From Minisyncoccia bacterium (GTDB taxonomy: Bacteria > Patescibacteriota > Minisyncoccia > Phycocordibacterales > UBA6065), in assembly GCA_044233485.1 (NCBI GenBank), contig JBIIJY010000001.1, forward strand, positions 16,701 to 80,700: a stretch of DNA of 64,000 nt, written 5' to 3'. Position numbers and translations under genes: made by a program. Shown here one piece after another: positions 1 to 60,623 of this stretch (position 1 is its first letter; the number at the start of each line of letters is the position of its first letter). Under the pieces are notes generated by a model, which was not told the DNA's origin, did no database searches, and was given only the letters and a program-made list of their open reading frames with translations.

Positions 1-557
1 TTATACACCACCATCTTTTTCCCTTCTTGTTTTGAGAAAAAGTCTCGCCACATACCCGCTGCTGGCGAGTGCATCAGGCTCAGTAGTTGCTCTTCCTTGA
101 GCGTCAGATCAAACCGCGCATTATCAAAAATCTGTTTAAGAAAATAGCGGTATGGCGCAAGAAGTTTTGAGTTCAAAAATACCGCTTGCGTCTCGGGACT
201 AATCTTTCCCATCGCTAGAGTAAAAAAGACGATCTTGTTGGCAGACTTTTGCAATCGCTGTTCGAGAAACGTCGCACGCTCTTGAGCTACTGTGTCAGCT
301 GAGTTGATCTCGAAGGCGAGCTGGAAATAAAAAACTGGCTTCCAGGTACCGGCCACTTTGGTCAGCGCCTCCCAATCACGTATTGCTTCATAGAGACTTG
401 TTTCAGAAGCAGTAAAATCTACGCCTTCATATTTTGACGCAAAATCGGTGTAGGTCTTTTCGAGAAAAAGGCAGTCGGTCTCTATTTGCGGATCAGTATG
501 TGAGGCATAGAGCAAGGTTAAATCCCACTCTGTTTTATATGGAGAGTTTGTACTCAT
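1..557 (-). CDS. Partial CDS (N-terminal ~185 aa; continues past the left window edge). Possibly an M3-family oligoendopeptidase F-like protein.
   Basis: Hand translation of the minus strand from the ATG at 555-557 gives MSTNSPYKTEWDLTLLYASHTDPQ... with no stop before position 1. It is absent from the ORF track because it runs off the edge. The WDLxxLY N-terminus recalls PepF, but the similarity is weak. Confidence 0.4.
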   Translation of the reverse strand, partial: MSTNSPYKTEWDLTLLYASHTDPQIETDCLFLEKTYTDFASKYEGVDFTASETSLYEAIRDWEALTKVAGTWKPVFYFQLAFEINSADTVAQERATFLEQRLQKSANKIVFFTLAMGKISPETQAVFLNSKLLAPYRYFLKQIFDNARFDLTLKEEQLLSLMHSPAAGMWRDFFSKQEGKKMVVY

Positions 558-585
558 GATGATCTCATACTAGCAGAAAACTCGC

Positions 586-897
586 TTATTCTCTAACCAC
601 CTCACCACCGCTCGCCATCCAAGACGAAAGCCCTCCTTCGAGGTTATAGACCTCGTTAAACCCAAGTCCAGTCAAGTAAAGCGCCGCGACTTTACTTCTC
701 CCTCCGCTCAGACACTGGCAAACTATCTGCGCATCTTTTTTGAGTAAGTTGATTTTTGATTCAAATTCATTAAGTGGAACTGAGAGTGCGCCAGGGATAT
801 GCCCTTCTGTAAATTCAGAACTTGAACGCACATCAACAAGGAGTGTATTTGGATTTTCTTTTATTGTTTTAAACTCGGGTACAGTGATGTTTTTCAT
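586..897 (-). CDS. Single-domain rhodanese-like sulfurtransferase.
   Basis: 103 aa. Active-site loop CQCLSGGRS (Cys-x5-Arg) and a typical rhodanese fold sequence. Confidence 0.85.
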   Translation of the reverse strand: MKNITVPEFKTIKENPNTLLVDVRSSSEFTEGHIPGALSVPLNEFESKINLLKKDAQIVCQCLSGGRSKVAALYLTGLGFNEVYNLEGGLSSWMASGGEVVRE

Positions 898-962
898 TTG
901 ATTTCTGCTTCACTTTTTGTGTTATCTACAAAACGATACTTCTATATTTTCTAGTTAACCTT

Positions 963-1415
963 CTACCCCCAGAGATTAAGGAAGACACCAATATAGTGGA
1001 CAACCACATACAAGAAAAATAAATATCCTGCGATAGCTACGATCAGTGTAATGGAAATGATGTTAAGTATTTCATTTCGTCTTTTCTTTGCCTCATCGAT
1101 AGTACAGATACCTTTTGCTCGTCGAAAATAGTAGATAAGTGCCCCTGCAAGCGACACAAGTCCTGCCCCACGGAAATACCATGCATAGTCTCCGTAGAGA
1201 GTATCTGCCAAGGACGTAGCGAAGCTCGCTGTCGATAATCCAAGCAACACCAGGATCACCGGAGACAAGCAGCACAGTGAGGCGAACATCACCGGCAGAG
1301 AAGACAGCTTCAGGGCATCGCGCAAGAGTGTTTTCTGTGTATTTGTTATCGAGTTTTGAGCTTTTGGTTCCATATGAGTTAGTGTGGTAATTATACCAGA
1401 TGTGTAAATTGTCAC
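963..1415 (-). CDS. MerT-like membrane transport protein.
   Basis: ASLCCLSPVILVLLGLS, with a vicinal Cys pair in the first TM, matches MerT ASACCLGPLVLIALGFS. The following region with a conserved Cys also aligns (GDYAWYFRGAGLVSLAGALIYYFRRAKGIC vs MerT LEPYRPIFIGAALVALFFAWRRIYRP...C). No merA, merP or merR is nearby. Confidence 0.6.
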   Translation of the reverse strand: MTIYTSGIITTLTHMEPKAQNSITNTQKTLLRDALKLSSLPVMFASLCCLSPVILVLLGLSTASFATSLADTLYGDYAWYFRGAGLVSLAGALIYYFRRAKGICTIDEAKKRRNEILNIISITLIVAIAGYLFFLYVVVHYIGVFLNLWG

Positions 1416-1538
1416 GTATCAGCTATTAGGACTAAGAGGATTAAGCAAGTAATACATTTCTGCGAAATGTCGTGCGCGACCCCCCATTGCACGACAATCA
1501 GAACTTTATGAGAGGAGATTAAAACTAGTATACAAAAA

Positions 1539-2075
1539 CTAGGATTTAATTTTTAGAAACACCTTCTCGTATTTTTCAGCAGAAACCTTATCAATGAGTT
1601 CTTTTTTGAATTGCCCAAAACCATTTAAAGTTACTGGGACACTGACTCTTGTATTTTCATTCCTAAGAGACAAACATTTTGCTGTTGCAAAGTAATCAAT
1701 AACTTTTACATCTGACCAATTAATTTTTTTAGAGTTACCTAAGAAATTTGTACTCTTAACCACCGTATCGTTAAATTCTACCCGAGTGTTTTTATAGTAT
1801 AAGACCATATACGAGCCCATCGATCCAAATACCACCAACATAAAAATTGACATTGTAAGGAATTGGCTATCTCTATTATAAACATCTACGTAATACAAAA
1901 CTGGAAAAACAGCCCCGAGCAATATTGAAAGTAAACCAATGTAACCAAAAACCTTGTCAGCTCTCATCACTTTTCCACCAGAAACATCTAAAGCTGGTTC
2001 ATCGGATTTAGTTATCAGGTATTTTGAAAAGGCAATTACACCTATAGAAATAAGTGCGTATGTAAGGAGATTCAT
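1539..2075 (-). CDS. Hypothetical membrane protein (N-terminal TM segments plus a soluble C-terminal domain).
   Basis: 178-aa ORF with hydrophobic N-terminal helices. No recognisable motif. Confidence 0.45.
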   Translation of the reverse strand: MNLLTYALISIGVIAFSKYLITKSDEPALDVSGGKVMRADKVFGYIGLLSILLGAVFPVLYYVDVYNRDSQFLTMSIFMLVVFGSMGSYMVLYYKNTRVEFNDTVVKSTNFLGNSKKINWSDVKVIDYFATAKCLSLRNENTRVSVPVTLNGFGQFKKELIDKVSAEKYEKVFLKIKS

Positions 2076-2140
2076 GGAACTATATTACCATAATTACATT
2101 CACGGTATTCGTAATTCTGTATTGTAGCGTAACCTGATTC

Positions 2141-2734
2141 TTATAACACCTTGTCAACACTAAAGATATCGCCGACTCTATCTGTAGCTTTGAGAACATC
2201 TATTCTCTTGCGAAGATATTCACTATTAATTGAATACACCTTCATAAAGTTGGCAATATCCTCAAGGTCATTCTTCCCCACATCCTTACCCCTTTGAAGA
2301 ATAGCTTTAATGAGCAAGACGTCCTCGGGAGGTAAAAGCCAGAGTGCCTTATCTTTATGAGTTAACCTTATTCGATTGCTTAAAATATCATCGGTTATGT
2401 GCAAATCATATACCTTCTCGCTAATCGTAATAGTTAGATGACTCGTAAGCTGTATGGAGTGGTCATTTTCAGGATTAGAGTTACGAACATTCTCGGTCTC
2501 AGATTTATACTGAAAAGATTTAATTCCGAGGAGTGTATCTACTTTGTCGTGGTCTTCATTTGCAATATAAATATCCACATCATCTGGGAATCTTTTATTT
2601 CCCAATAAAAACAGACTTCCACTACCGCCAATCATCCATTGGATTTTATTTTTATCGAGTAATGAAAGTGTACTCAATAATTTGGGAAACTTTTCTATAA
2701 ATTGTTCAACTGACTCTCCGTTCATATAGATCAA
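2141..2734 (-). CDS. ANT(2'')-like minimal nucleotidyltransferase (aminoglycoside/lincosamide NTase fold).
   Basis: GGSGSLFLLGNKRFPDDVDIYI matches the G[GS]-x(9-13)-DxD NTase motif. It parallels ANT(2'')-Ia GGGWAIDARLGRVTRKHDDIDL. 197 aa. Confidence 0.5.
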   Translation of the reverse strand: MIYMNGESVEQFIEKFPKLLSTLSLLDKNKIQWMIGGSGSLFLLGNKRFPDDVDIYIANEDHDKVDTLLGIKSFQYKSETENVRNSNPENDHSIQLTSHLTITISEKVYDLHITDDILSNRIRLTHKDKALWLLPPEDVLLIKAILQRGKDVGKNDLEDIANFMKVYSINSEYLRKRIDVLKATDRVGDIFSVDKVL

Positions 2735-2802
2735 GTATATAGTAATACTGAGATTTTTTACTCTATTCTTAAGTCGCTACATAAGTTTTTTAGTGGTGAA
2801 AT

Positions 2803-2849
2803 ATCGGGATTCGGTCACGTATAAATTTCTGCTGAAATTTTATGCGACC
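2803..2849. repeat. 47-bp repeat R1, copy A. It contains a decayed tRNA-Glu 3'-end-like segment followed by GTCAC.
   Basis: atcgggattcggtcacgtataaatttctgctgaaattttaYgcgacc is identical apart from one Y to 3677-3723. It is preceded by gtgaaat rather than gtgaccct. Confidence 0.8.
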
Positions 2850-2930
2850 ACACTGCGCGGCTTTTTGAGCTGGTCAACCACAGATATGAAATCAGAGAGA
2901 AAAGCTGAATCTACAAACGATACTGGTATA

Positions 2931-3473
2931 TTAGTAAAACCAAGGAATAAGACCAACTCTCTTTTTATACTCAGAATATGTAGCCCCGAACTTCCTTTCA
3001 AGGAAATGATCTTCTTTTTTGATTACATGTAATATGAAAAATATAACAGGTGCCATCAAGAATACTAGCCAATAATTTAACTGAAGATAAATACCAACAC
3101 CAGTAAGTATTGCTCCAATGTAGTAAGGATGTCTGGTAAATTTGTAGGGTCCTCCTGTAAATAGAGTATCTCCAGAATCATCACCCATAAATCCCCAGTC
3201 CTTGTTTCTATTTAATCTAGTCCAGAACATGAGAATTAATCCGAATAAGGAAAACATTACACCTAAGTAATAAGTGGGATTAAAGATATTAGTTTCTACT
3301 ATTTCCAACAAAAGTAGTATTGGTACCAAAAAAGATATAAATATCTCAATAAATTTTCTGCCCCAATAGATAAACGAGGTGACCATTCTTCTGTTTCTCT
3401 TTCCTTGGACTAAAGTAAAGCTATTTCGGAAAACAATGAATGCGAAAAGTAATATTAATGTTACTATTTTCAT
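2931..3473 (-). CDS. Isoprenylcysteine carboxyl methyltransferase (ICMT/PEMT) family membrane methyltransferase.
   Basis: C-terminal motif TRHPYYIGAIL...EEDHFLERKFGATYSEYKKRV (RHPxY...EE...FG..Y..Y). Multi-TM, 180 aa. Confidence 0.8.
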   Translation of the reverse strand: MKIVTLILLFAFIVFRNSFTLVQGKRNRRMVTSFIYWGRKFIEIFISFLVPILLLLEIVETNIFNPTYYLGVMFSLFGLILMFWTRLNRNKDWGFMGDDSGDTLFTGGPYKFTRHPYYIGAILTGVGIYLQLNYWLVFLMAPVIFFILHVIKKEDHFLERKFGATYSEYKKRVGLIPWFY

Positions 3474-3521
3474 GGGTTACATTTTATCACTTTTAGACAT
3501 TTTTGATATAATTTACGGATC
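3474..3521 (-). promoter_or_regulatory. Conserved ~45-bp upstream element (promoter/5' leader module), copy 1, directly upstream of the ICMT gene.
   Basis: cattttatcacttttagacatttttgatataatttacggatcaa is near-identical to 6939-6985, which lies upstream of the CDPS operon. On the coding strand it reads ...TAAATTATATCAAAA.G.CTAAAAGTGATAAAATG, with a TGaTAAAAT-like -10. Confidence 0.5.
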
Positions 3522-3616
3522 AAGTGTGAGCCACAATAATTTGTTCGTCGTCACTCACAAATTTTCCAGCCCCGGACTCGACTGTTTTTCTTGCTAGAAA
3601 AACATGTCTCCGTCTT

Positions 3617-3687
3617 CACAAAATTTAAAAAGAGTGAAGCAGTTCACTCTTTTTAGAAACCAAATTTTGTGACCCTATCGGGATTCG
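3617..3687. repeat. Hairpin (terminator-like) plus an exact 21-nt copy of the tRNA-Glu 3' end (att-like remnant), copy 1.
   Basis: cacaaaatttaaaaagagtgaagcagttcactctttttagaaaccaaattttgtgaccc is followed by tatcgggattcg. 3667-3687 equals 11530-11550 of tRNA-Glu. The hairpin stem differs from the copy at 7138-7196 only by compensatory changes. Confidence 0.8.
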
Positions 3688-3744
3688 GTCACGTATAAAT
3701 TTCTGCTGAAATTTTACGCGACCCCGCCTCGCGCCGTCGCGCTC
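3677..3744. repeat. R1 copy B (3677-3723) fused to the 28-bp GC-rich motif R2 (3717-3744).
   Basis: R2 cgcgaccccgcctcgcgccgtcgcgctc is identical to 59214-59241, and a diverged relative lies at 60450-60476. It is followed by the long hairpin gtcacaatagtaaaaagccacgtgtagtggctttttattattgtgac and another ttgtgaccct at 3790-3799. Confidence 0.75.
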
Positions 3745-4014
3745 GGGCCGTCACAATAGTAAAAAGCCACGTGTAGTGGCTTTTTATTATTGTGACCCTA
3801 CTGTCCCTGGAGTGGAACTCCATAGAACAAGAGATTTTACGCTGGAAAAGTATTGTTTCTGTTTATGGTCATTTGATTATGTCTCCAAGTATGGCTTGAA
3901 AAGCTTACTTTTAAGTCTGTGATAGGAAGTTATTTCTACCAGTCTAGTTATAGGACTGTATTAGGTTAAACGGTTGGTGAAAAAATTAAATCTTCAGGCG
4001 ATACTGCTCCTACA

Positions 4015-4891
4015 TCAGGGCTGGCCTTTTTTTGGTTCACGTACTTTCATTTCCTTCGTGGCGAACATCTCGGCGAGTGTTTGATGGGTACTGGTGTCTC
4101 GCTTATCAACCTCGCCAGTTTTAGGGTTGTACATCTCTTTCTTTAACAAATCACTGATGATGTAAGCGGGTATGGATGAGGTAAGGGACGTTCCGTATGT
4201 GTATGTAAGTGCTATACCAGGAGGCACTCTAATGGCACCTCTTTCTATTAAACCTCCATAAAGTAATACTTCCACTTTACCTGTCACAGAATTAAAAATA
4301 GTAGAGCCACTTGAACCGCTTTGCACCATTGCGTCTATGAGTAAGCCGTGGGGATGTGAACAAGGAAAGGGTTGAACCGCACTCACAATACCTCGTTGCA
4401 ATACGGGGTTAATTTGATGTACCCAACCTGGGGCACGAAGTGTTCTGGTTCCCATTGGAAACCCTGCAATAAAAACCTCGTCGCCTTCGTTGAGATTGAA
4501 TGATGTTTCTAGTTAGAACAGGTAATCCTTTTGCTTTCACATAAATAAATCCAACATCAGGCACGTCTGTTCCGTAATGAGCACCCTCGACTGGTTCTTC
4601 TCTCGTTAATGTTCCAACTCCCTCGACTTCAAGAAATACTGATGCCATTCCTTTGCCTGGAAGGTTTTGTAGATACATTACCAGAATTGGCCATTCGTCG
4701 TCTGGTGCTCCCTTGCGTCTTGGTAGTTGCTTAATCACGTTTACAACGTGGTCATTGGTTACTATCAACCCGTCTTCTCGAACAATAAAGCCAGTCCCGA
4801 TAATATCGGGCATATCAGGATTTTGAGAAATTCTCCCGACTATGGCTACGATTGCTGGCTTTAGTTTTTGGTATTGAGAAGTGAATGACAT
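4015..4891 (-). pseudogene. Trypsin-like (S1, HtrA/DegP-like catalytic domain, no PDZ) serine protease interrupted by a frameshift. The two ORFs are 4409..4891 and 4015..4455.
   Basis: The upstream ORF carries the His motif LIVTNDHVV and ...KGLPVLT. The downstream frame, extended upstream past its ATG, reads SFNLNEGDEVFIAGFPMG and contains the Ser motif SGSSGSTIF. The frames meet near 4500-4515 (ctaactagaaac), where each frame hits a stop in the other. Confidence 0.65.
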
Positions 4892-4895
4892 AGTT

Positions 4896-5762
4896 TTATT
4901 TTGTATCGGGTTCTTTCTTGTGCCATGCCATAATCTTTTTCAGTTGCTCCTTCGTAAGCCCGCTATCGAAAGGCTTGAACAGCCTGTCAGCTTCTTGGAA
5001 ACCCTCTTGGTCTTTGAGGTACAAAAATGAGTTCTTAAGGTTCAGTAAAATTTTGATGAGTAAGTCTTTAACAATATGAAAATTATTTACGCAGTAGTGG
5101 TAACCAGCCTGCTCTTCAAAGTCGAAATCTAGCTTAAATACGTCAACGCTTTCAAGTAGTCCAGCATATCCGCTGTGGGTGTAACTAGACATAATCTTGT
5201 AACACTTCCCAAGCATTTCCTTGATAGGCTGTTCCTCGTTCTCGTAAAATTCTGCAAGCTCGGTATTCAAATGTTCGTGATAAAATTCTCTGGCATCTAC
5301 GTTGCCAATGATTTTGCCTTTGAACCACTTATCAAGAAGGGCCTTATTCTTATCGTCCCAGAACAGCATTGCCAAATCTAATGCTTCCGTACCAGAACGT
5401 GATAGCTCCATCGCTTCAAGGTTCCTACCGTGACGACAAACTAGAAGCGTAGTCTTCAAATTACCGAAAGCCCTCGCAAGGAGAAGATAAGCAGCCGCAG
5501 TCTTTGTTTGTTCGGTAATAGATGTGAGATAAGGGAAAATCCTTCGTATCAATTTCTCTACATCAGGAAGGATTGCCTCAATTTCATCGCATAGCTGGTT
5601 TATTTCCGCCACGCTCCTTGCCTTATCGACTGCGGGAGAATCTGGGTTCGCTTGTGCATATAGAAAGCCCTTCTTTTTATTTATATCTGCAACACGGTTT
5701 TTTACGTATTCTTCAGGAGTTTCGTCTTTTTCAAGCTCTTCAGGGAAAGGAGGTTTTGTCAT
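4896..5762 (-). CDS. Hypothetical protein (288 aa), last gene of the CDPS-SET operon.
   Basis: Its start overlaps the SET stop by 4 nt (ATGA). Acidic N-terminus, probably all-alpha. No motif identified by eye. Confidence 0.6.
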   Translation of the reverse strand: MTKPPFPEELEKDETPEEYVKNRVADINKKKGFLYAQANPDSPAVDKARSVAEINQLCDEIEAILPDVEKLIRRIFPYLTSITEQTKTAAAYLLLARAFGNLKTTLLVCRHGRNLEAMELSRSGTEALDLAMLFWDDKNKALLDKWFKGKIIGNVDAREFYHEHLNTELAEFYENEEQPIKEMLGKCYKIMSSYTHSGYAGLLESVDVFKLDFDFEEQAGYHYCVNNFHIVKDLLIKILLNLKNSFLYLKDQEGFQEADRLFKPFDSGLTKEQLKKIMAWHKKEPDTK

Positions 5763-6232
5763 AGGGATGTAGAAAGATAGTCAGAAATATAACCTTTGTA
5801 TTTTTCCTTTATTTCATTAGGAAGCTCTTTATAACAACCGAGCCTGCCTCTGCATATTGCGGAACCGCACTTACAGATACGCTCTTCTTCGGAAAGCTCG
5901 TCGCCATATTCATATCCAATCATTGCATAGTCTATGGCGAGTTCCTCGTCTTTCTTTATATTCCTCATTGCAACAAATAATGTGCGTTCCTTTACTCCCA
6001 GATTTGGGTCACACGAATGGCAAATAAACTGGCAGAGGTTTCCTTCTGGCATGGTAGGATCAATCTTCAAGCTCTCACTGATTGGTATGGTGTAAGCAGT
6101 TGCGTTTTCAACGATTGAACCAAAGGCTACGAACACAACCTCATCCTTTATAAAATCACGTTGGGCAAATAGGCTTTTCCCGTACTTACCTGTGTCCTTT
6201 GAGTAAACGTTGTCTTCGATTTTGTAAGTCAT
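5759..6232 (-). CDS. SET-domain methyltransferase.
   Basis: FICHSCDPN (NHSCxPN), ELAIDY (ELxFDY), and a post-SET Cys cluster CKCGSAICRGRLG. 157 aa. Confidence 0.85.
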   Translation of the reverse strand: MTYKIEDNVYSKDTGKYGKSLFAQRDFIKDEVVFVAFGSIVENATAYTIPISESLKIDPTMPEGNLCQFICHSCDPNLGVKERTLFVAMRNIKKDEELAIDYAMIGYEYGDELSEEERICKCGSAICRGRLGCYKELPNEIKEKYKGYISDYLSTSL

Positions 6233-6236
6233 AAAT

Positions 6237-6926
6237 TTAGCGAACCACGAGGAGAACTTTAGGTTTTGTGTCCATTACTTTGTCACGAACATCGAGGAAT
6301 AATTCTCCTTTCTGTATGCCTTCTACCAGTTCAGGTAGCTTGCCGTCGTAGGGATAGGCGTATGCATCGAATACCAATCCTTTGATTGGTGTACGTCCCA
6401 GGATTTCAGGAAATTCTGCTATGACATACGAACCCAGCTTTACCTTATCTTCGTAAGAGAAGACCCTATTTTCTTTGCTAGTAAAACTATCCACGAGTTC
6501 GATAATCGCACTTTTGAACTCACTATCTGTGTCGTACTTCTTGTTTAGGAAATCTAGCTTCTCTTGGAAGGCAGGGGTAAAAAGTTCGTCCCACTTTGCG
6601 AAGTGTAATTTCGAGAACTGGTCAGAAGTGAGCTTGGATTTTGCCAGAACTTTAACCCCTTCGAGTATTTCGTCTCCAAGTCGCAGGGCAGTCTCTTTCG
6701 CTTTTTCAGGAGACTTGCGGTTGCGCACTTCGATATTGATTGCGTGAATGCCATCGGCCACGTAAATGACCACGAACTCTTTTGTATGTTCAAGTGACCA
6801 CTCAACCAGACCCACAATGTTTTCAGTAGAAAACCACTTGTTTCCCAAGCTTATTCCAACCCCTATATTGTATTGCTTTGCGTAGAGGTCTTTTTCTGTT
6901 CCGCCTCGAACTTTGTATAACCGCAT
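6237..6926 (-). CDS. tRNA-dependent cyclodipeptide synthase (CDPS, AlbC/YvmC family).
   Basis: 229 aa. IGVGISLGNKWFSTEN matches the AlbC catalytic pocket IGISAGNSYFSQKN (GxS..N..F). VVIYVADGIHAINIE matches VVYVDTHIDEM. SYVIAEFPEIL matches NYVLAEAPLF (YxxxE). An aromatic-rich YAYPYD region matches the Y202 region. The SET gene follows 4 nt downstream. Confidence 0.75.
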   Translation of the reverse strand: MRLYKVRGGTEKDLYAKQYNIGVGISLGNKWFSTENIVGLVEWSLEHTKEFVVIYVADGIHAINIEVRNRKSPEKAKETALRLGDEILEGVKVLAKSKLTSDQFSKLHFAKWDELFTPAFQEKLDFLNKKYDTDSEFKSAIIELVDSFTSKENRVFSYEDKVKLGSYVIAEFPEILGRTPIKGLVFDAYAYPYDGKLPELVEGIQKGELFLDVRDKVMDTKPKVLLVVR

Positions 6927-6938
6927 AAAAGTAAAGTC

Positions 6939-6985
6939 ATTTTATCACTTTTAAGCCATTTTGATATAATTTACCTATCAATCAC
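6939..6985 (-). promoter_or_regulatory. Conserved ~45-bp upstream element, copy 2, directly upstream of the CDPS operon.
   Basis: cattttatcacttttaagccattttgatataatttacctatcaa is near-identical to 3477-3521. Confidence 0.5.
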
Positions 6986-7137
6986 CTCCCTGTGTAGTCA
7001 ATGCAGATCCCTCCCAGAGATTTGCATTTTGTGTCACGAGTTACTAAGTGTTCTCGATCGCTTTGCAATCTGCGAGCACTAAGCACTCGCGACCCCAGCT
7101 CGGCACTTTTTCAGCTGAAAAAGTATGCCTGCGCTTT

Positions 7138-7196
7138 CACAAAATTTAAAAAGACTGGAGCAGTCCAGTCTTTTTGGAAACCAAATTTTGTGACCC
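7138..7196. repeat. Hairpin plus a 9-nt tRNA-Glu 3'-end core (ttgtgaccc), copy 2. It forms the left junction of the GC-rich element.
   Basis: cacaaaatttaaaaagactggagcagtccagtctttttggaaaccaaattttgtgaccc. The stem agactgga/tccagtct corresponds to agagtgaa/ttcactct in copy 1, with base pairing preserved. Base composition changes abruptly after 7196. Confidence 0.8.
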
Positions 7197-7480
7197 ACAA
7201 CAGGACATACCTCGAACTTGGGACCGGATTCTCGACACCTTGGCAGCGTTGAACATGAAGGGCCTTCTGCCTGACCTGGCATCCGTTGTGGAACCAGAGC
7301 ATGCCTCTTTGAACGATGGCCTGCCGGATCACTTTGGCACCTAGCCCAAGCGGTTCGCCCCCCTTGCGGCGGATCAGGAAAGCATCAAAATCCGCCGACG
7401 AGATCGAGTGTCTGTTGGACGTGTGTCAGCAGCTCGGTCTCATCGATCACGGCGGTATCGGCGGCACGGGTAGAGCTGTG

Positions 7481-7717
7481 ATGGAACCGTTTGCCGTATT
7501 CGTTGATCAGTTCGATGCGGGACAGGATCGTCTGGGCTGCCGCCAGCGGATCAGCCGGCTGAGCGTCGCGAATCTTCCCGATGAAATCACCGAGCCCTGT
7601 TGTCCCGAGGACGCCCGACCGAATCCGGAACGGGTTCAGACCAAGGCGGCCCTGGAGGAACTGCTGGGCGACGACGAGGACGGTCTGGCCGCCACCTTCG
7701 AGGATTACCGCCTATGA
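7481..7717 (+). CDS. Hypothetical small acidic protein (start uncertain: 7316 or 7481).
   Basis: High GC at third codon positions in this frame from about 7480. The stop overlaps the next ORF's start (ATGA at 7714-7717). Confidence 0.4.
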   Translation: MEPFAVFVDQFDAGQDRLGCRQRISRLSVANLPDEITEPCCPEDARPNPERVQTKAALEELLGDDEDGLAATFEDYRL

Positions 7718-7986
7718 GCGCCCCGAAGTTCGGCCTGGGCCGGTTGGTGGCCACGCCCAATGCGTTGGCCCATGTCTCCCACGCGGAGATCCTGAAGGCC
7801 GTGTCCCGGCATCTGGCCGGCGATTGGGGCGACTGCGGGGCGGAGGATTGGGCAACCAATGACGCCGCCCTGGTGCAGGGCACCCGCCTGCTGTCGGTGT
7901 ATCACGCCGTGGACCGGACGAAGTTCTGGCTCATCACGGAATGGGACCGGTCGGTGACGACCGTGCTCCTGCCCGAAGACTACTGA
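7714..7986 (+). CDS. Hypothetical protein (~90 aa), translationally coupled to the upstream ORF.
   Basis: MSAPKFGLGRLVATPNALAHVSHAEILKAVSRHLAGDWGDCGAEDWATNDAALVQGTRLLSVYHAVDRTKFWLITEWDRSVTTVLLPEDY has protein-like composition. Confidence 0.5.
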   Translation: MSAPKFGLGRLVATPNALAHVSHAEILKAVSRHLAGDWGDCGAEDWATNDAALVQGTRLLSVYHAVDRTKFWLITEWDRSVTTVLLPEDY

Positions 7987-8124
7987 TTTCACGGCCTCCC
8001 ACTTCTGCGGAGGCCGCTTTTCTTCCCGCCGGCCCTTAAACCAAGGGGCCGTCCACGCTCCCGGCGGAGAGACTCACACCCAGAGCTACCTGCATCAACA
8101 GGCGGACGGCCCGAGAGAGACATC

Positions 8125-8631
8125 ATGGAAGAACCCGAGTTGTTCAAGGTCGCAGTGCGACCTCCCAAGAAGAAGAAGCCACCCCAGGAATACAAGGTGG
8201 TGGCGTTGCGGGACTGTCCGCTGCCGGAGTATCTGCTCAAATGCGAGTCCCCGGAGCACGCGGCCGACTACTGGCGGCGGTGCATCAGCACCCTGCCGAG
8301 TTACGATCCCGACAAGGAATCGTTCGTCGTGCTGTTGCTGACCACCCGCAAGCACGTCAAGGGCCACCAGGTGGTGACCACCGGCATCCTCGACCAGGTG
8401 CTGGTCCATGCCCGCGAAGTGTTCCGGCCCGCGATTGTGGCCGCCGCCCATGCGGTGGTCCTCATGCACAACCACCCCGGGGGAGACCCCTCGCCCAGCG
8501 AGGCGGACCTTCGTGTCACGCGTGACCTGATCCGCGCCGGCCAGCTCCTCAAGATCGAGGTGCTGGACCATGTCATCGTCACCCCGTTCCGGCACTGTTC
8601 ACTGCGGACGTTGGGTTACTTTGCAGGCTGA
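8125..8631 (+). CDS. radC: RadC-like JAB/MPN-domain protein.
   Basis: HNHPGGDPSPSEADLRVTRDLIRAGQLLKIEVLDHVIV matches the RadC/JAB motif HNHPSG..PS..D...T..L......I.LLDH.IV. Confidence 0.85.
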   Translation: MEEPELFKVAVRPPKKKKPPQEYKVVALRDCPLPEYLLKCESPEHAADYWRRCISTLPSYDPDKESFVVLLLTTRKHVKGHQVVTTGILDQVLVHAREVFRPAIVAAAHAVVLMHNHPGGDPSPSEADLRVTRDLIRAGQLLKIEVLDHVIVTPFRHCSLRTLGYFAG

Positions 8632-8635
8632 CCAA

Positions 8636-8672
8636 GCCCGCTCCGATGGAGCGGGCTTTTGTTGGCGATGAA
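8636..8672 (+). terminator. Rho-independent terminator after radC.
   Basis: aagcccgctcc-gatg-gagcgggctt followed by ttgttgg. Confidence 0.6.
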
Positions 8673-8831
8673 TTACGCTAAGAAGCTCCCGAGACTGCGA
8701 AACTGGTTCTAGGCGAACCTCGTGGCTTCGTTTCGGGCTACTGGCAAACCGCATGTCCTGTAAGGCGTGAAAGTTGAGAACCAGTCGCCCAGCCGACGCT
8801 GTTTCGGCTGGGCGGCACGCCTCGCGTTGCA

Positions 8832-9125
8832 TCATCCGCCTTTTCGGCGGACTTCTTTGACGACGACGGTCGCAATTTCCATAACAACGGCCCCGTGTTG
8901 TGCCAAAAATCGCACGGCAGGCCGAGCCCATATCGGCGCCAAGACGACCAGCGATCCCGTGACCACGTCGTGCCAACCGCGGTGCCAGCCGAACATCGCA
9001 AGCATGCCCAGGCCGGCGAAGCTGATCGGTATCCAATTGACGCTTTTCGAGATATGTGGTGCAGATTTCTTGCGCCCTTGCCGGCGGCGACGATTTGCGT
9101 TATCGTTATCTTGTTTACGCATAAC
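8832..9125 (-). CDS. Possible small membrane protein (~98 aa). Ambiguous against overlapping plus-strand ORFs.
   Basis: MRKQDNDNANRRRRQGRKKS... followed by a hydrophobic stretch WIPISFAGLGMLAMFGWHRGWHDVVTGSLVVLAPIW. The plus-strand ORFs 8767..9138 and 8895..9146 have poorer composition, but a plus-strand terminator at 9174 argues that something on the plus strand ends there. Confidence 0.3.
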   Translation of the reverse strand, partial: VMRKQDNDNANRRRRQGRKKSAPHISKSVNWIPISFAGLGMLAMFGWHRGWHDVVTGSLVVLAPIWARPAVRFLAQHGAVVMEIATVVVKEVRRKGG

Positions 9126-9173
9126 AGTGTTAGTGTGATTGTTTAATTGTGTAAACACCCGGGTTTTTCCGGG

Positions 9174-9211
9174 TAGGCCGCCTGCTGTAACAGGCGGCCT
9201 TTTTTGTTTGG
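9174..9211 (+). terminator. Rho-independent terminator (second of two tandem hairpins).
   Basis: aggccgcctg-ctgtaa-caggcggcct followed by tttttt. It is preceded by the hairpin acccgggtttttccgggt. Confidence 0.55.
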
Positions 9212-9300
9212 ACCGCACTTGCAGCCCACAGCCGACACTAGCAAGCGACTGCGCGAAGATGTTTGGGGTTTGGGTGGCGCATGGTGATTGGAAATGGTCG

Positions 9301-9624
9301 TTAAGCGGCCTGGCCAGCAATGGTCGCCAGAACCTGACGACGCTGGGTTTGCTGGTGGCCGGTCTGGGCAGCGAGTGCCTTGGCACGGGCCGCCACATCT
9401 CGGGCTACTTCGCCATAGAGACCGCTGAAGAGTTCGCTCGCCGAGCGCTGGTAGATGGCCTCGTAGGCGAGGGCCGCCCTAAGTCCGGGTTCACGGGCGA
9501 AGCGTTCATGCCGCGAGACCTTGGCCCCGCTCTGGGTGCCCAGCAGAAAGGCCACGTCCTCCTGGGAGAGTCCCAGGCGTTTGCGGTTCGAAAGCAGGTA
9601 GTTGGGTAGCAGGGTTGAAGACAT
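9301..9624 (-). CDS. XRE-family helix-turn-helix transcriptional regulator.
   Basis: LGLSQEDVAFLLGTQSGAKVSRHERF is a classic HTH_3 segment. It is transcribed divergently from the small ORF and the recombinase. Confidence 0.75.
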   Translation of the reverse strand: MSSTLLPNYLLSNRKRLGLSQEDVAFLLGTQSGAKVSRHERFAREPGLRAALAYEAIYQRSASELFSGLYGEVARDVAARAKALAAQTGHQQTQRRQVLATIAGQAA

Positions 9625-9872
9625 GGGGGTGGAACTCGCGGGGAGTCCGAGCCTTCACCCTACCGGATCGGTGAAACTATCGTAGGCGGGAACCTTTGCC
9701 GCTGACGGCAAGTGCGAAGGCCAACACCGGACAAATCAGTCCGGTGGAAGGATTAGGATTATACCATGTTATTACCCGTCCGTCAAAGATGCCCCCGAAA
9801 GGCGAAGGTGTCGTCACCGGCAGACATCCCCGTCTTCGGCCGCCAAGATTGAGGCGGTAGAGTGGGTCGCAC

Positions 9873-10106
9873 ATGAAGCCAAACCCCACTCCCACCCTGC
9901 GTGAGCTGTATCCCCACTTCACCGAGCACGAGCTGGCCGAGGCAGAGGATAACGTCGAACGCTATCTGGCGCTCATGCTGCGGATATTTGATCGCCTGGA
10001 GGCCGAGGCTGCCCCGTCGCCCGATCCATTGTCCCCTGACCCGGATGTGATACAATGCTCATTGCCGGATTCAGCCCCGCTTCCCCGGCCTCTCCCACAC
10101 CCATGA
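9873..10106 (+). CDS. Small protein (77 aa) translationally coupled to the serine recombinase. A possible directionality or accessory factor (speculative).
   Basis: Its stop TGA (10104-10106) overlaps the recombinase ATG (10103-10105). Confidence 0.45.
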   Translation: MKPNPTPTLRELYPHFTEHELAEAEDNVERYLALMLRIFDRLEAEAAPSPDPLSPDPDVIQCSLPDSAPLPRPLPHP

Positions 10107-11602
10107 ACGGATACATCGGCTACATCCGTGTCTCCACGGTGAAACAAGGAACCCAAGGAGTCTCGCTGCAGGAACAGCGCGAGGCGATTTTGCGTTACGC
10201 CGAACGCAATCGACTGCCGATTGGCATCTGGCTGGAGGAGATGGAAACCGCGGCCAAGCAGGGTCGTCCCGTGTTCAACCGCGCACTCAAACTGCTTCGT
10301 AGCCGAGGCGCCCGGGGAATCATCCTGCATAAGCTGGACCGGGGAGCGCGCAACCTCCGGGATTGGGCGGCTATCGGCGAGCTTTCTGATCAAGGCGTTG
10401 AGATTCACTTCGTTTCCGAAGGGCTGGATCTCCAGTCCAGGGGTGGCCGACTTTCGGCCGACATTCAGGCGGTCGTGGCCGCCGATTACATCCGCAATTT
10501 GCGTGAGGAGACCCGCAAGGGATTTTACGGACGTCTGAAGCAGGGCCTCTACCCGCTGCAGGCTCCGCTCGGCTATGTCGATCAGGGCCGGGGAAAGGCC
10601 AAGACGATTGACCCCGTGATGGGACCGATCGTCCGGCAGGCGTTCGAGCTTTATGCCAGCACCCACTTCAATCTGGAATCCTTGGGCACGGAATTGCATA
10701 GGCGGGGACTCCGCAACCGCCGCGGGGGACGGGTGACCCGCAATGGACTCTCCACGCTGCTCAACAATCCCTTCTATTTCGGCCTCATCCACCTTCAAAA
10801 GACGGGTGAGACCTTCGCGGGCGTGCATGAACCGCTCATTGGCAAGGTCCTCTTTGACCGCGTGCAGGGAGTTCTCACCGGCAAAACCAACACCCGCAGT
10901 CAGCGGCATCGGTTCCAGTATCGCCGGCTGTTTGCCTGTCAGTCCTGCCGTCATTCACTCGTGGGCGAGCGCCAGAAGGGGCACGTCTATTACCGTTGCC
11001 ACGGCAAATCCTGCCCGCCGTCTTCCGTCCGCGAGGAGGCCATCGGGATGCAGGTGGAAAACCTGCTCCGGAAAATCCGTTTCAATGAACAGGAACAGGC
11101 CTACTTCAAAGCCCGACTCCGCCTGATGAAAACGACGTGGGCCAATCGGCAGGAACAGGAGGCCAGACTTTTGAACATCAAGCTGGGCCAGCTCAGGGAT
11201 CGCCTCAACCGATTAACCGACGCCTACCTGGACCAGGCCCTCGATAAAACCATGTTTGAAGCCCGGAAACAGAGCCTGTTGCTGGAGCAGAGGGAGACCG
11301 AGGCGCAGCTAGCCAACCTGATCCGTCACCACGGCACTTCGCCGGATCGGCTTGAGAAATTCCTCGAACTGGCCGGCGACGCCTGGTTGAGCCACCAGAA
11401 GGCATCGCCCGAGGAACAGCGTGAACTGGTCAGCATCTTCACCTCGAACCGGCAGGTGCAGGGAAAAAAGGTCGAATTGGAGCCGTCGCTTCCGTTTAGG
11501 GAAATAGCGGAACGGTCGACTTCGGATGGTTGTGACCCTATCGGGATTCGAACCCGAGTTACAGGCTTGAAAAGCCCGTGTCCTGACCAGACTAGACGAT
11601 AG
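10103..11602 (+). CDS. Large serine recombinase (resolvase/invertase catalytic domain, recombinase domain, zinc ribbon, coiled coil).
   Basis: MNGYIGYIRVSTVKQ carries the catalytic Ser. Zn ribbon: CQSCRHSLVGERQKGHVYYRCHGKSC. Coiled-coil C-terminus. The ORF nominally reads through tRNA-Glu (11533-11606); the true stop and the role of the last ~25 codons are uncertain. Confidence 0.88.
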   Translation: MNGYIGYIRVSTVKQGTQGVSLQEQREAILRYAERNRLPIGIWLEEMETAAKQGRPVFNRALKLLRSRGARGIILHKLDRGARNLRDWAAIGELSDQGVEIHFVSEGLDLQSRGGRLSADIQAVVAADYIRNLREETRKGFYGRLKQGLYPLQAPLGYVDQGRGKAKTIDPVMGPIVRQAFELYASTHFNLESLGTELHRRGLRNRRGGRVTRNGLSTLLNNPFYFGLIHLQKTGETFAGVHEPLIGKVLFDRVQGVLTGKTNTRSQRHRFQYRRLFACQSCRHSLVGERQKGHVYYRCHGKSCPPSSVREEAIGMQVENLLRKIRFNEQEQAYFKARLRLMKTTWANRQEQEARLLNIKLGQLRDRLNRLTDAYLDQALDKTMFEARKQSLLLEQRETEAQLANLIRHHGTSPDRLEKFLELAGDAWLSHQKASPEEQRELVSIFTSNRQVQGKKVELEPSLPFREIAERSTSDGCDPIGIRTRVTGLKSPCPDQTRR

Positions 11603-11606
11603 GGCC
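11533..11606 (-). tRNA. tRNA-Glu (anticodon TTC).
   Basis: GGCCCTATCGTCTAGTCTGGTCAGGACACGGGCTTTTCAAGCCTGTAACTCGGGTTCGAATCCCGATAGGGTCA. It closely resembles E. coli tRNA-Glu. Anticodon loop TTTTCAA. No CCA is encoded. Confidence 0.85.
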
Positions 11607-11700
11607 AAGGAGTACCTTCAGCAATGACTGACTCGTACTGTCGATAATTTATAACATACTTTTGAAATGATTTCAAAAGTGCTACACTCACTTCTGCACT

Positions 11701-11787
11701 GGAAGCGTGGCTGAGTGGTTGAAAGCACCGCTCTCGAAAAGCGGCATAGGGGTAACCTTATCGGGAGTTCAAATCTCCCCGCTTCCG
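11701..11787 (+). tRNA. tRNA-Ser (anticodon CGA), type II with a long variable arm.
   Basis: GGAAGCGTGGCTGAGTGGTTGAAAGCACCGCTCTCGAAAAGCGG...GGGAGTTCAAATCTCCCCGCTTCCG. The acceptor, D, anticodon (CTCGAAA), variable and T arms all fold. Confidence 0.85.
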
Positions 11788-12045
11788 CAGGATAGGAAGT
11801 GTTGGGGACACTTCCGTGGAGATTTGAAAGGACTTTCCTGAAAGACGAGAAGTTTGTGGCTTCGAGTATTTCGGAAAGTCACCTGCCGATGTAATCGGAA
11901 AATCTCCCCGCTTCCGCAGGATAGGAAGTGTTGGGAACACTTCCGTGGAGATTTGAAAGGACTTTCCTGAAAGACGAGAAGTTTACTGCTTCGAGTATTT
12001 CGGAAAGTCACCTGCCGATGTAGTCGGAAAATCTCCCCGCTTCCG
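11771..12045. repeat. Tandem 129-bp direct repeats (2 full units plus 17 nt), each beginning with the tRNA-Ser 3' end.
   Basis: aaatctccccgcttccg occurs at 11771, 11900 and 12029. The units are near-identical and contain the internal palindrome ggaagtgttggggacacttcc. Confidence 0.85.
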
Positions 12046-12056
12046 CAGGAGATTAT

Positions 12057-59084: not shown

Positions 59085-59213
59085 AGAGATTATCTTTACT
59101 TTATGCTGTACCCATTTTCGACTATCTCAATTTATTATATCACTTGTAATCTATTTGTCAACTATTGTGGAATGTACAGGCCTCGGTCACAGGTCTCGCA
59201 CTGCTGTGCTCGC

Positions 59214-59262
59214 CCGCGACCCCGCCTCGCGCCGTCGCGCTCCGGCTTTCGAGTCCTGTAAT
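59214..59262. repeat. R2 GC-rich 28-bp motif (exact copy) followed by an inverted 13-nt tRNA-Ala T-arm fragment.
   Basis: cgcgaccccgcctcgcgccgtcgcgctc (59214-59241) equals 3717-3744. ttcgagtcctgta at 59249-59261 equals the tRNA-Ala T-arm in the opposite orientation. Confidence 0.7.
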
Positions 59263-59313
59263 ACCCAGCCAGCAAGAAAAAACACCCGCGCATGCGGATG
59301 TTTTTTCTTGCTG

Positions 59314-60357: not shown

Positions 60358-60423
60358 GATCCCCCACGCAGAGCAAAGCAGTTTGCTCTGCTCCACCTCA
60401 CGATGTGTCGGCGGGTGGGATCG
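60358..60423. repeat. 66-bp direct repeat, copy 1: hairpin plus the last 18 nt of tRNA-Met, then GTCAC.
   Basis: Identical to 60502-60567, which is the intact tRNA-Met 3' end plus its downstream hairpin gcagagcaaagcagtttgctctgc. The two copies diverge immediately after gggatcg (gtcac in copy 1, aacca in copy 2). Confidence 0.8.
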
Positions 60424-60549
60424 GTCACAACTCTTTTACTTCGTAAAAGGTCGCTACCCCGCCTCGTCTGTCTCGCATAGCTCGACATGACTCTGGCCTT
60501 CGATCCCCCACGCAGAGCAAAGCAGTTTGCTCTGCTCCACCTCACGATG

Positions 60550-60623
60550 TGTCGGCGGGTGGGATCGAACCACCGACCTTGGGCTTATGAGTCCCACGCT
60601 CTAGCCAACTGAGCTACGCCGAC
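60550..60623 (-). tRNA. tRNA-Met (anticodon CAT); initiator vs elongator vs Ile2 not resolved.
   Basis: GTCGGCGTAGCTCAGTTGGCTAGAGCGTGGGACTCATAAGCCCAAGGTCGGTGGTTCGATCCCACCCGCCGACA. Anticodon loop CTCATAA. GGG/CCC in the anticodon stem. Confidence 0.8.

What the first reader, a model, noticed from the sequence alone, without database searches (positions are those of the whole stretch)
2803..7196. Stacked array of tRNA-Glu 3'-end remnants with a covarying hairpin: a multi-event integration hotspot
There are four copies of the tRNA-Glu 3' core (ttgtgaccc...). One is decayed (2796-2813). One is an exact 21-mer (3667-3687). A bare 10-mer (ttgtgaccct) sits at 3790-3799. The last is a 9-mer at the island junction (7188-7196). 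Two of them follow a 59-bp hairpin module. The two hairpins differ only by compensatory stem changes (agagtgaa/ttcactct versus agactgga/tccagtct), so the structure rather than the sequence is conserved. The 21-mer and the decayed copy are both followed by the same 47-bp R1 flank beginning GTCAC. Together these suggest successive insertions of related elements downstream of tRNA-Glu, delivering ICMT, the CDPS operon and the GC-rich element.
Basis: seen in the sequence. Interest (0 to 1): 0.6.

Follow-up and report, generated by a model that had tools for sequence, protein, structure and literature searches.

The report
Stacked insertions behind a tRNA-Glu gene
Downstream of one tRNA-Glu gene in a tiny-celled (Paceibacteria/CPR) bacterium, about 10 kb of foreign DNA has piled up through repeated site-specific insertions. 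Each older insertion is marked by a leftover copy of the tRNA's end and a conserved folded DNA/RNA module. The newest is a serine-recombinase element whose own gene is cut by the insertion.

Summary
The repeats are real, non-random and present in independent assemblies.

The locus (about 1411-11531) is an insertion stack behind tRNA-Glu(ttc) (minus strand, 11532-11606) in a Paceibacteria genome.

1. The GC-rich segment (7197-11529, 61% GC against 47% host) is a different kind of element. It is a large-serine-recombinase (LSR) element flanked by the 9-bp core TTGTGACCC. Its attP lies inside the LSR reading frame, so integration detaches the conserved last 48 codons.
2. The older layers carry the CDPS operon, a PEMT/ICMT-like methyltransferase, and a nucleotidyltransferase plus membrane protein. 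None encodes a recombinase. Three are closed on the far side by a conserved module (GC box, 16-bp covarying hairpin, GTGAC) abutting a T-loop-to-3'-end copy of tRNA-Glu; a fourth module abuts only the tRNA trailer. The copies decay with distance from the tRNA.
4. The same module sits at tRNA-Ala and tRNA-Met in this window. It also occurs in other Paceibacteria, once at the 3' end of rpsI.

The enzyme for the older layers is unknown, and no empty site was found. This is a new variant of tRNA-island accretion. The self-split LSR resembles integrases reported only from archaea.

The parts
11532..11606 (-). Intact tRNA-Glu(ttc), the anchor of the stack. Its 3' end faces lower coordinates.
   Evidence: ARAGORN; Rfam tRNA, 62.6 bits.
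11530..11538 (.). Right copy of the 9-bp LSR core TTGTGACCC (last 7 nt of the tRNA plus 2 nt of trailer). It encodes Cys-Asp-Pro of the LSR.
7197..11529 (.). GC-rich LSR element, 4333 bp, 60.9% GC. It carries the LSR, RadC and three small ORFs with no family match.
   Evidence: Composition; Pfam; PHROGs.
10103..11602 (+). Large serine recombinase, integrated form (499 aa). The reading frame runs into the tRNA gene, so the last 21 codons are tRNA antisense.
   Evidence: Pfam Resolvase, Recombinase and Zn_ribbon_recom; homologues.
7197..7343 (+). Detached 3' end of the LSR gene (QQDIPRTWDRILDTLAALNMKGLLPDL...*). It is contiguous with 11538 in the circular form.
   Evidence: the rejoined 527-aa protein is colinear with 10 full-length homologues.
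7188..7196 (.). Left copy of the LSR core TTGTGACCC.
7137..7187 (-). HP2, a bidirectional intrinsic terminator. The outer stem TCACAAAATTT/AAATTTTGTGA uses the tRNA tail; the inner stem is AAAAAGACTGGA.
7030..7107 (-). R1-family module, long-hairpin variant. It ends GTGAC|ACAAAATGC.
   Evidence: Covariance model R2, 30.8 bits, E about 6e-6.
6938..6981 (.). D4 repeat (copy 2). It holds a + strand promoter-like site, TTATCA-17-TGaTATAAT, directly upstream of the CDPS start.
   Evidence: D4.
4015..6926 (-). Cargo of layer B: CDPS, SET-domain protein, DUF5677-like protein and a trypsin-like peptidase (frameshifted in this assembly).
3750..3799 (-). HP3, a third hairpin of the same design (arms GTCACAATA/TATTGTGAC, inner stem AAAAAGCCAC). 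It carries the 10-mer at 3790-3799.
   Evidence: I2; (-30.4 kcal/mol, z = -6.1).
3685..3736 (-). R1 module 'Glu2': GC box, 16-bp hairpin, then GTGAC abutting the 21-mer.
   Evidence: 75 bits.
3667..3687 (.). Exact 21-nt copy of the tRNA-Glu stretch from the T-loop to the 3' end plus 2 nt (a displaced tRNA end).
   Evidence: D8.
3616..3666 (-). HP1, the terminator hairpin homologous to HP2.
3480..3523 (.). D4 repeat (copy 1), directly upstream of the methyltransferase start.
   Evidence: D4.
2931..3473 (-). Cargo of layer A: PEMT/ICMT-family membrane methyltransferase (32% GC).
2811..2862 (-). R1 module 'Glu1', with a degenerate GC box.
   Evidence: 68 bits.
2796..2813 (.). Decayed copy of the tRNA-Glu 3' segment (12 nt exact plus GTGA).
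1539..2734 (-). Cargo of the outermost layer: nucleotidyltransferase and a 178-aa membrane protein (34% GC).
1425..1487 (-). Decayed R1-like module, marking the outer edge of the stack.
   Evidence: ATTTCTGC-N12-GCGACC at 1456-1481: 3 matches in the window against 0 expected; alignment.
59166..59312 (-). Same module family at tRNA-Ala: a 16/20 copy of the tRNA-Ala 3' end (59166-59185), the module (59183-59234), an inverse T-arm piece and a terminator.
60358..60567 (-). Same module family at tRNA-Met: an exact 66-bp direct repeat (hairpin plus tRNA 3' end) around a 78-bp insert that begins GTCAC.

Best explanation
The region is an integration hotspot built by serial site-specific insertions into the 3' half of tRNA-Glu in a Paceibacteria (CPR) genome. 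Two kinds of element are involved.

(a) Youngest layer, 7197-11529. This is a 4.3-kb large-serine-recombinase (LSR) element from a GC-rich source. Recombination took place inside the 9-bp core TTGTGACCC, which spans the tRNA's last 7 nt and 2 nt of trailer. The element's attP lies inside the LSR reading frame (codons Cys-Asp-Pro). Integration therefore swaps the enzyme's conserved last 48 residues for 21 residues of tRNA antisense and leaves the true tail at the far end of the element.

(b) Older layers. Each incoming DNA brought four things:
- a replacement for the tRNA from the T-loop (TCG|A) to the 3' end;
- its own terminator hairpin, which uses the tRNA tail as part of its stem;
- sometimes a promoter block (D4) with cargo genes;
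- at its far end, a conserved 'R1' module made of a GC box, a 16-bp hairpin with a fixed base and a free-varying top, and GTGAC.

Each insertion pushed the previous tRNA end outward, where it decays: 21/21 identical, then about 16/21, then about half. These layers encode no recombinase. Either they were moved in trans or they have lost the gene.

Shown: the anatomy, the covariation, the split LSR gene, the recurrence of LSR elements at tRNA-Glu in other CPR contigs, and the recurrence of the R1 module at other targets and in other genomes.

Inferred: that R1 is the element-side arm of a recombination site, the order of events, and mobility itself.
For: Repeats and their significance.

LSR domains. 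There are more than 5500 homologues. The top ones are 520-540 aa and cover only 96% of the window protein. Their C-termini (...CDPxQDIPRTWDxILDxL..LPDL) equal the window's right end plus its left end. The rejoined 527-aa protein is colinear with 10 homologues to residue 509-520.

Other integrated forms end in tRNA antisense: P0157, P0198 and P0229. P0157 sits at tRNA-Glu(ctc) with the same core TTGTGACCCTA in another CPR contig. A different LSR (21% identity) also reads ...NCDP| into tRNA-Glu, and a CDPS gene (69% identity) lies beside it.

Composition falls into three classes: 34%, 42% and 61% GC against 47% for the host.

The R1 hairpin in the four window copies is 93.8% paired on the tRNA-sense strand, and 8 of 16 pairs changed on both sides. 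With four copies from three other Paceibacteria added, pairing is 92.6% and one G.U pair is invariant in all eight.

Every clear module in the window abuts a copy of the local tRNA's 3' part. One module in another genome abuts a 9-nt copy of the end of rpsI. rpsI and tRNA 3' ends are classic integrase targets (general knowledge). Stacking of partial tRNAs by successive integration is described for Prochlorococcus tycheposons.

Independent assemblies agree.
Against: - No tyrosine integrase or other candidate enzyme lies in or near any R1-bounded layer. This holds in the window and in the three other genomes that carry the module.
- No empty site, circular junction or strain that differs at this locus was found. 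All retrievable contigs are 99.98-100% identical.
- The cargo-less units at tRNA-Met (144 bp) and tRNA-Ala (125 bp) are too small to be ordinary double-stranded circles. The exact 66-bp repeat at tRNA-Met reaches 46 bp beyond the tRNA. A classical integrase model does not explain these features well.
- The strand-specific G.U pattern fits an RNA (or single-strand DNA) role at least as well as a duplex recombination arm.
- The module at 7030-7107 joins the tRNA trailer, not the T-loop.
Confidence: 0.6

Rival explanations
1. Local segmental duplication. One ancestral block (tRNA end, terminator, D4, gene, R1) was duplicated in place and diverged, and genes were later replaced. There were no independent insertions except the LSR element.
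For: D4, HP and R1 pairs are 82-91% identical and occur nowhere else in the window. No recombinase is encoded in these layers. No polymorphism was seen.
Against: The cargo genes are unrelated and differ in GC (34% against 42%). R1-family modules also sit at tRNA-Ala, tRNA-Met and, in other genomes, tRNA-Ala and rpsI, sharing exact strings of 24-28 nt. The copies of the tRNA end start at the same T-loop position at three different tRNAs.
Confidence: 0.12
2. The R1 module and the hairpins are functional RNA elements of the tRNA-sense transcripts, such as 3' end, processing or stability signals, or a small RNA. They are not recombination sites. The tRNA-end copies next to them are part of that RNA's fold, and the stack arose by other means.
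For: Pairing is better on the tRNA-sense strand (93.8% against 85.9%), with an invariant G.U pair. All cargo genes are on that strand, so the modules lie in their 3' regions. HP1 and HP2 score as terminators, and D4 holds a near-consensus promoter. An inverse copy of the target segment upstream of the GC box can pair with the direct copy.
Against: No Rfam family matches. The modules mark the boundaries between compositionally distinct blocks. They are flanked by direct repeats of the target gene's end, including an exact 66-bp repeat. A pure RNA role does not explain why intact and displaced copies of a tRNA end coexist. The two readings are not exclusive.
Confidence: 0.15
3. The older layers are ordinary tyrosine-integrase islands whose integrase genes were deleted. 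R1 is simply the conserved arm of their attP.
For: The identity block from the T-loop to the 3' end is the classic footprint of tRNA-targeting tyrosine integrases (Islander abstract; general knowledge). The outer copies decay.
Against: No integrase remnant lies in any of five layers or near the modules in three other genomes. The only recombinases seen at these CPR tRNA-Glu islands are serine recombinases. Cargo-less units of 125-144 bp exist.
Confidence: 0.1
4. Chance similarity or an assembly artefact.
For: Short motifs such as a 9-mer can recur by chance. The source is metagenomic.
Against: Shuffle controls. Several independent assemblies from different samples carry the same sequence across all junctions.
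Confidence: 0.02

Closest known systems
tRNA-anchored genomic islands built by tandem integration (accretion), e.g. Prochlorococcus tycheposon islands; integrase-less cis-mobilisable elements (CIMEs) of Streptococcus thermophilus
   Same: There is an intact tRNA at one end. Displaced partial tRNA copies mark successive insertions, with newer elements pushing older ones outward (tycheposon preprint). Some layers lack their own recombinase, as in CIMEs (own knowledge).
   Different: The host is a CPR bacterium. The older layers share a conserved structured module that recurs at different target genes and in other genomes. Cargo-less units are only 125-144 bp. No tyrosine integrase is seen anywhere.
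Large serine recombinase (serine integrase) elements such as phiC31, Bxb1 and TP901-1
   Same: The three-domain LSR is present. A short shared core lies at both junctions and there are no long repeats. The recombinase gene sits at the element edge.
   Different: attP lies inside the recombinase's own reading frame, so integration removes its conserved C-terminal 48 residues. The target is the extreme 3' end of a tRNA gene. The element is tiny (4.3 kb) and has no phage or plasmid genes.
Archaeal 'suicidal' SSV-type tyrosine integrases; integration-dependent immunity of mycobacteriophages
   Same: The att site lies inside a gene of the element, so integration changes the gene product. A 2021 review states that recombinases disrupting their own gene are known only from archaea (PMC8371274). 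In mycobacteriophages, attP inside the repressor gene changes its C-terminus (own knowledge).
   Different: Here the enzyme is a serine recombinase in a bacterium. Only the C-terminal tail beyond the known domains is detached, so the catalytic part stays intact.
Integron attC sites and cassette arrays
   Same: The recombination-site candidate is conserved as a hairpin with a fixed base and a variable top. Gene units stack in one orientation next to a fixed anchor. Pairing is strand-specific.
   Different: No IntI gene is present. There are no R''/R' (RYYYAAC/GTTRRRY) boxes. The units carry their own promoter and terminator. The anchor is a tRNA gene.

Membership tests
tRNA-linked genomic island formed by site-specific integration | Intact tRNA gene at one boundary, and a direct repeat of its 3' segment at the other | tested here: met
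   tRNA-Glu is intact. There is an exact 21-nt copy at 3667-3687 and decayed copies further out.
tRNA-linked genomic island formed by site-specific integration | Integrase or recombinase gene inside the element, usually next to the tRNA | tested here: inconclusive
   Met for the GC-rich layer (LSR next to the tRNA). Not met for the CDPS, methyltransferase and nucleotidyltransferase layers.
tRNA-linked genomic island formed by site-specific integration | Composition differs from the host | tested here: met
   34%, 42% and 61% GC against 47% for the host. GC3 is 71-83% in the LSR element.
tRNA-linked genomic island formed by site-specific integration | Presence/absence variation among related genomes (an empty site) | not testable with these tools
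   All retrievable contigs are the same clone. The nearest species share no synteny. The pattern scan of metagenomes gave only chance hits.
Large serine recombinase integrative element | Protein with Resolvase, Recombinase and zinc-ribbon domains | tested here: met
   Pfam E = 8e-26, 1.1e-11 and 1.5e-4; PHROG integrase, E = 7e-75.
Large serine recombinase integrative element | Short common core at both junctions, with no long direct repeats | tested here: met
   An exactly 9-bp core, TTGTGACCC, at 7188-7196 and 11530-11538. The rebuilt attB equals the uninterrupted HP1/21-mer junction at 3657-3687.
Large serine recombinase integrative element | Recombination activity; a recombination directionality factor | not testable with these tools
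   No assay was possible. The small ORFs of the element have no family match.
Integron | IntI-type tyrosine recombinase with attI next to the array | tested here: not met
   No Phage_integrase family hit among the called genes across the window and its flanks.
Integron | attC sites with RYYYAAC / GTTRRRY boxes | tested here: not met
   The module base is GGTCGC/GTGACC. No GTTRRRY lies at the junctions.
Intrinsic (rho-independent) terminator (HP1, HP2, HP3) | GC-containing stem-loop followed by a T run | tested here: met
   The scan reports HP1 and HP2 on the minus strand, with stems of 12-13 pairs and T-rich tails. Folds have z = -3 to -6.
Known RNA families (Rfam 15) | A match at or near the gathering score | tested here: not met
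   Only the four tRNAs match. The permissive search gave nothing credible over the modules.

The most novel reading that the evidence does not exclude
The R1 module may be a new kind of folded recombination site that mimics its target. It has a GC box, a covarying hairpin with an invariant G.U pair, the sequence GTGAC, and an inverse copy of the target segment that can pair with the displaced gene end.

An enzyme acting in trans and not yet recognised would use this site to stack promoter-bearing gene cassettes, and also empty units, onto the 3' ends of tRNA and rpsI genes across Paceibacteria. That would be an integron-like cassette platform in which a tRNA gene plays the part of attI.
Probability: 0.15. 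Interest if true: 0.85.

Novelty: new variant of a known kind. Interest (0 to 1): 0.6.

Why it matters
CPR/Patescibacteria have very small genomes, and little is known about how they gain genes. This locus shows a concrete route.

One tRNA gene has collected at least five separate DNA layers. They include a cyclodipeptide-synthase operon that is carried by a serine-recombinase element at the same tRNA in another CPR genome.

Two features deserve follow-up:
- A widespread LSR family (more than 5500 homologues) keeps its attachment site inside its own reading frame, so the enzyme's C-terminus depends on whether the element is integrated. A 2021 review states that self-disrupting integrases are exclusive to archaea. 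The design could be a built-in directionality switch. It also shows how target choice can change by editing two or three codons (CDP, CPP, CGP, CAP variants).
- A conserved structured module marks recombinase-less units at several conserved genes in several genomes. The enzyme and the mechanism are unknown.

Tried and rejected
- **Synteny search for an empty tRNA-Glu site.** The PepF neighbour was searched across 185,579 species genomes. It returned 80 Paceibacteria loci, best identity 51%, and none had tRNA-Glu nearby.
- **Exact 19-mer (hairpin plus core) across metagenome contigs.** Seven hits, all unrelated chance matches.
- **Viral contig scans.** The R1 junction, the GC box and an LSR homologue all found nothing.
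- **Neighbour-gene walk.** Using VanY homologues, the only close relative (79%) sits on a 2.3-kb contig. All other contigs are the same clone.
- **The 3790 10-mer as an old LSR junction with a coding tail.** The 43-aa peptide found no recombinase among 1.84 billion proteins. Rejected in favour of a hairpin arm.
- **R1 as the coding tail of a recombinase.** There is an in-frame stop in the Glu copies, and hairpin covariation argues against coding.
- **The module as a pseudo-tRNA, a retroviral-type primer-binding site, or an IS200/IS605, IS91 or IS110-type end.** Considered from the sequence and set aside. The copies are tRNA-sense and extend into the trailer, target-end duplications of 20-66 bp do not fit these transposons, and no such transposase is nearby.
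- **Rfam.** No family matches.
- **The 22-codon ORF across HP1/HP2.** The compensatory stem changes alter the amino acids, so the structure is what is conserved, not the peptide.
- **Logan contig ends at 2831, 3757, 6985 and 11559 as possible hints of population branching.** They cannot be told apart from repeat or palindrome breaks.

Full report
**Observation**

ARAGORN and Rfam place an intact tRNA-Glu(ttc) on the minus strand at 11532-11606.

- TTGTGACCC occurs four times in the window (3667, 3790, 7188, 11530) against 0.41 expected.
- The 21-mer at 3667-3687 is identical to 11530-11550.
- The copy at 2796-2813 keeps 12 nt exactly, plus GTGA.
- The hairpin block is a 90-nt repeat at 82% identity, and R1 is a 58-nt repeat at 91%. 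Neither occurs elsewhere in the window.
- A contig from a different JGI sample covers 1-12286 at 99.98% identity, and a Logan contig covers 3757-11559. The arrangement is therefore not an assembly duplication.

**Host**

Relatives of the flanking PepF gene are all Paceibacteria/Parcubacteria-type CPR genomes, the best at 51% identity. No close species is available, and all contigs carrying window proteins are 99.98-100% identical to the window. An empty site could therefore not be sought by comparison. Two large pattern or synteny scans gave nothing useful.

**The GC-rich layer**

Segment 7197-11529 has 60.9% GC against 47% for the host, and GC3 of 71-83%. It is bounded by exactly 9 bp, TTGTGACCC. 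It encodes a large serine recombinase with Resolvase, Recombinase and Zn-ribbon domains, plus RadC.

The LSR frame runs into the tRNA gene. More than 5500 homologues exist. The closest (65-78% identity) are 520-540 aa and leave the last 4% of the window protein unmatched. Their C-termini read ...IANRPxxxCDPxQDIPRTWDxILDxLxxLNxxGLLPDL.... The first part matches the window up to 11538, and the rest is encoded at 7197-7343, at the opposite end of the element. Joining the two ends gives a 527-aa protein colinear with ten homologues to residue 509-520. So attP lies within the LSR gene, at the codons Cys-Asp-Pro, which are TGTGACCC.

Other family members look like integrated forms whose tails are tRNA antisense: P0157, P0198 and P0229. 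P0157 sits at tRNA-Glu(ctc) of another CPR contig with the same core TTGTGACCCTA, in an element of 51-57% GC within a 38-44% GC host. In a third CPR contig, an LSR only 21% identical also reads ...NCDP| into tRNA-Glu, and a CDPS gene (69% identity) lies beside it.

A full-length copy also occurs inside a 705-kb contig with no tRNA nearby, so not every copy is split.

A 2021 review states that recombinases disrupting their own gene are known only from archaea. Here only the tail beyond the known domains is detached.

**The hairpins**

On the tRNA-sense strand, each remaining TTGTGACCC copy is the start of a long hairpin. GTCACAAAATTT pairs with AAATTTTGTGA around an inner stem AAAAAG(AGTGAA or ACTGGA). 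HP1 and HP2 keep all 23 pairs. They differ at 5 of 60 positions, and four of those differences form two compensatory pairs. They score as terminators. The hairpin at 3750-3796 has the same design with a different inner stem, and it explains the 10-mer (I2). These are terminators that follow the tRNA end.

**R1 is the informative element**

The sequence after each displaced tRNA piece begins GTCAC. It folds into a 16-bp hairpin and continues into a GC box (GCGACCCCGCCTCGCGCCGTCGCGCTC).

The same module sits at two other tRNAs in the window:
- At tRNA-Ala it follows a 16/20 copy of that tRNA's 3' end and carries the identical 27-mer.
- At tRNA-Met it opens a 78-bp insert between two exact 66-bp repeats, each made of a hairpin plus the tRNA 3' end.

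In all three cases the identity to the tRNA starts at the same T-loop position (TCG|GTCAC on the + strand).

Covariation supports a conserved fold:
- Across the four window copies the hairpin is 85.9% paired on the + strand and 93.8% on the tRNA-sense strand. Eight of 16 pairs changed on both sides.
- A covariance model finds the module in three other Paceibacteria genomes. One of these is a tandem pair of units downstream of tRNA-Ala(cgc). Another is at the 3' end of rpsI, with a 9-nt copy of the gene's end.
- With eight sequences, pairing is 92.6% and one G.U pair is invariant.
- Exact strings of 24-28 nt are shared between copies, including between genomes whose PepF proteins are only 39% identical.

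A second model reveals another module at 7030-7107, between D4 and HP2. A decayed one lies at about 1425-1487. tRNA-Ser has two 129-bp tandem units, each ending in a copy of its 3' 19 nt, with a different module sequence.

**Anatomy of the stack**

Read from the tRNA outward:
1. The LSR element.
2. HP2, a small hairpin and a module (7196 to 7030).
3. D4, the CDPS operon, HP3 and module Glu2 (to 3685).
4. The 21-mer, HP1 and a degenerate trace of a module (to about 3549).
5. D4, the methyltransferase and module Glu1 (to 2811).
6. The decayed tRNA piece, the nucleotidyltransferase, the 178-aa protein and a decayed module (to about 1425).
7. Host genes (MerT-like, rhodanese, PepF).

GC content separates the layers: 42% for the CDPS layer and 34% for the outer two.

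**Mechanism and limits**

The best reading is serial site-specific insertion that regenerates the tRNA each time, as described for other tRNA islands. The LSR layer is well supported.

For the R1-bounded layers the enzyme is unknown. No integrase lies in or near any of them. Three features do not sit easily with a classical duplex attP arm: the very small empty units, the 66-bp exact repeat, and the strand-specific pairing. These leave room for an RNA role or for a single-strand, attC-like site. Local duplication is less likely because cargo and composition differ between layers and the module occurs at other genes and in other genomes.

**Verdict**

This is a new variant of a known kind, with two features worth follow-up: the self-split LSR and the R1 module family.

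Noticed in passing
window 11771-12050: tRNA-Ser(cga) is followed by two 129-bp tandem units (96% identical), each ending in a copy of the tRNA's last 19 nt. Each unit also holds an inverse copy of the T-loop (GGAGATTTGAA) and a long hairpin. Its sequence is unrelated to the R1 module.
   Followed up: partly
window 60358-60567: tRNA-Met has an exact 66-bp direct repeat reaching 46 bp beyond the tRNA end, around a 78-bp insert that is an R1-family module. The unit is only 144 bp, and 100% repeat identity suggests a recent event.
   Followed up: partly
window 4515: The window lacks 2 bp (CA) that three other assemblies carry. This splits the trypsin-like peptidase gene (292 aa elsewhere) into ORFs of 160 and 146 aa. 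It is either a real variant or an assembly error.
   Followed up: partly
window 3484-3512 and 6942-6970: The D4 repeat contains a near-consensus + strand promoter (TTATCA, 17 nt, TG-extended TATAAT). It points away from the cargo genes toward the terminator hairpin, which would give a short transcript of about 140-200 nt. A 22-codon ORF ending in the TGA of TTGTGACCC is present in both copies, but its amino acids are not conserved.
   Followed up: partly
LSR homologues P0122-P0240: The residues at the att core vary among family members (CDP, CDQ, CPP, CGP, CAP, CCL) while the flanking motif DIPRTWD is conserved. Target choice appears to be written into two or three codons of the enzyme's own gene.
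   Followed up: partly
L111 6676-9158: In a 30% GC CPR contig, a 557-aa LSR only 21% identical to the window's also ends inside tRNA-Glu(ctc) at ...NCDP|. A CDPS gene (69% identity) lies next to it. The same site and cargo go with a different recombinase lineage.
   Followed up: partly
L108/L109: The CDPS-SET gene pair is 83% identical at the DNA level in another population, but its neighbours differ (NYN, DUF1761, DUF192, ribonucleotide reductase). There is no tRNA, D4 or hairpin module nearby.
   Followed up: partly
window 12057-15146: A 1029-aa protein is built of many ELWKSDGTxxGT repeats. Assemblies from other samples break inside it.
   Followed up: no
L106 212-1969: A second, 585-aa LSR with a C-terminal HTH domain lies in the same island as the tRNA-Glu-integrated LSR, together with RHS/YD-repeat toxin genes.
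   Followed up: no
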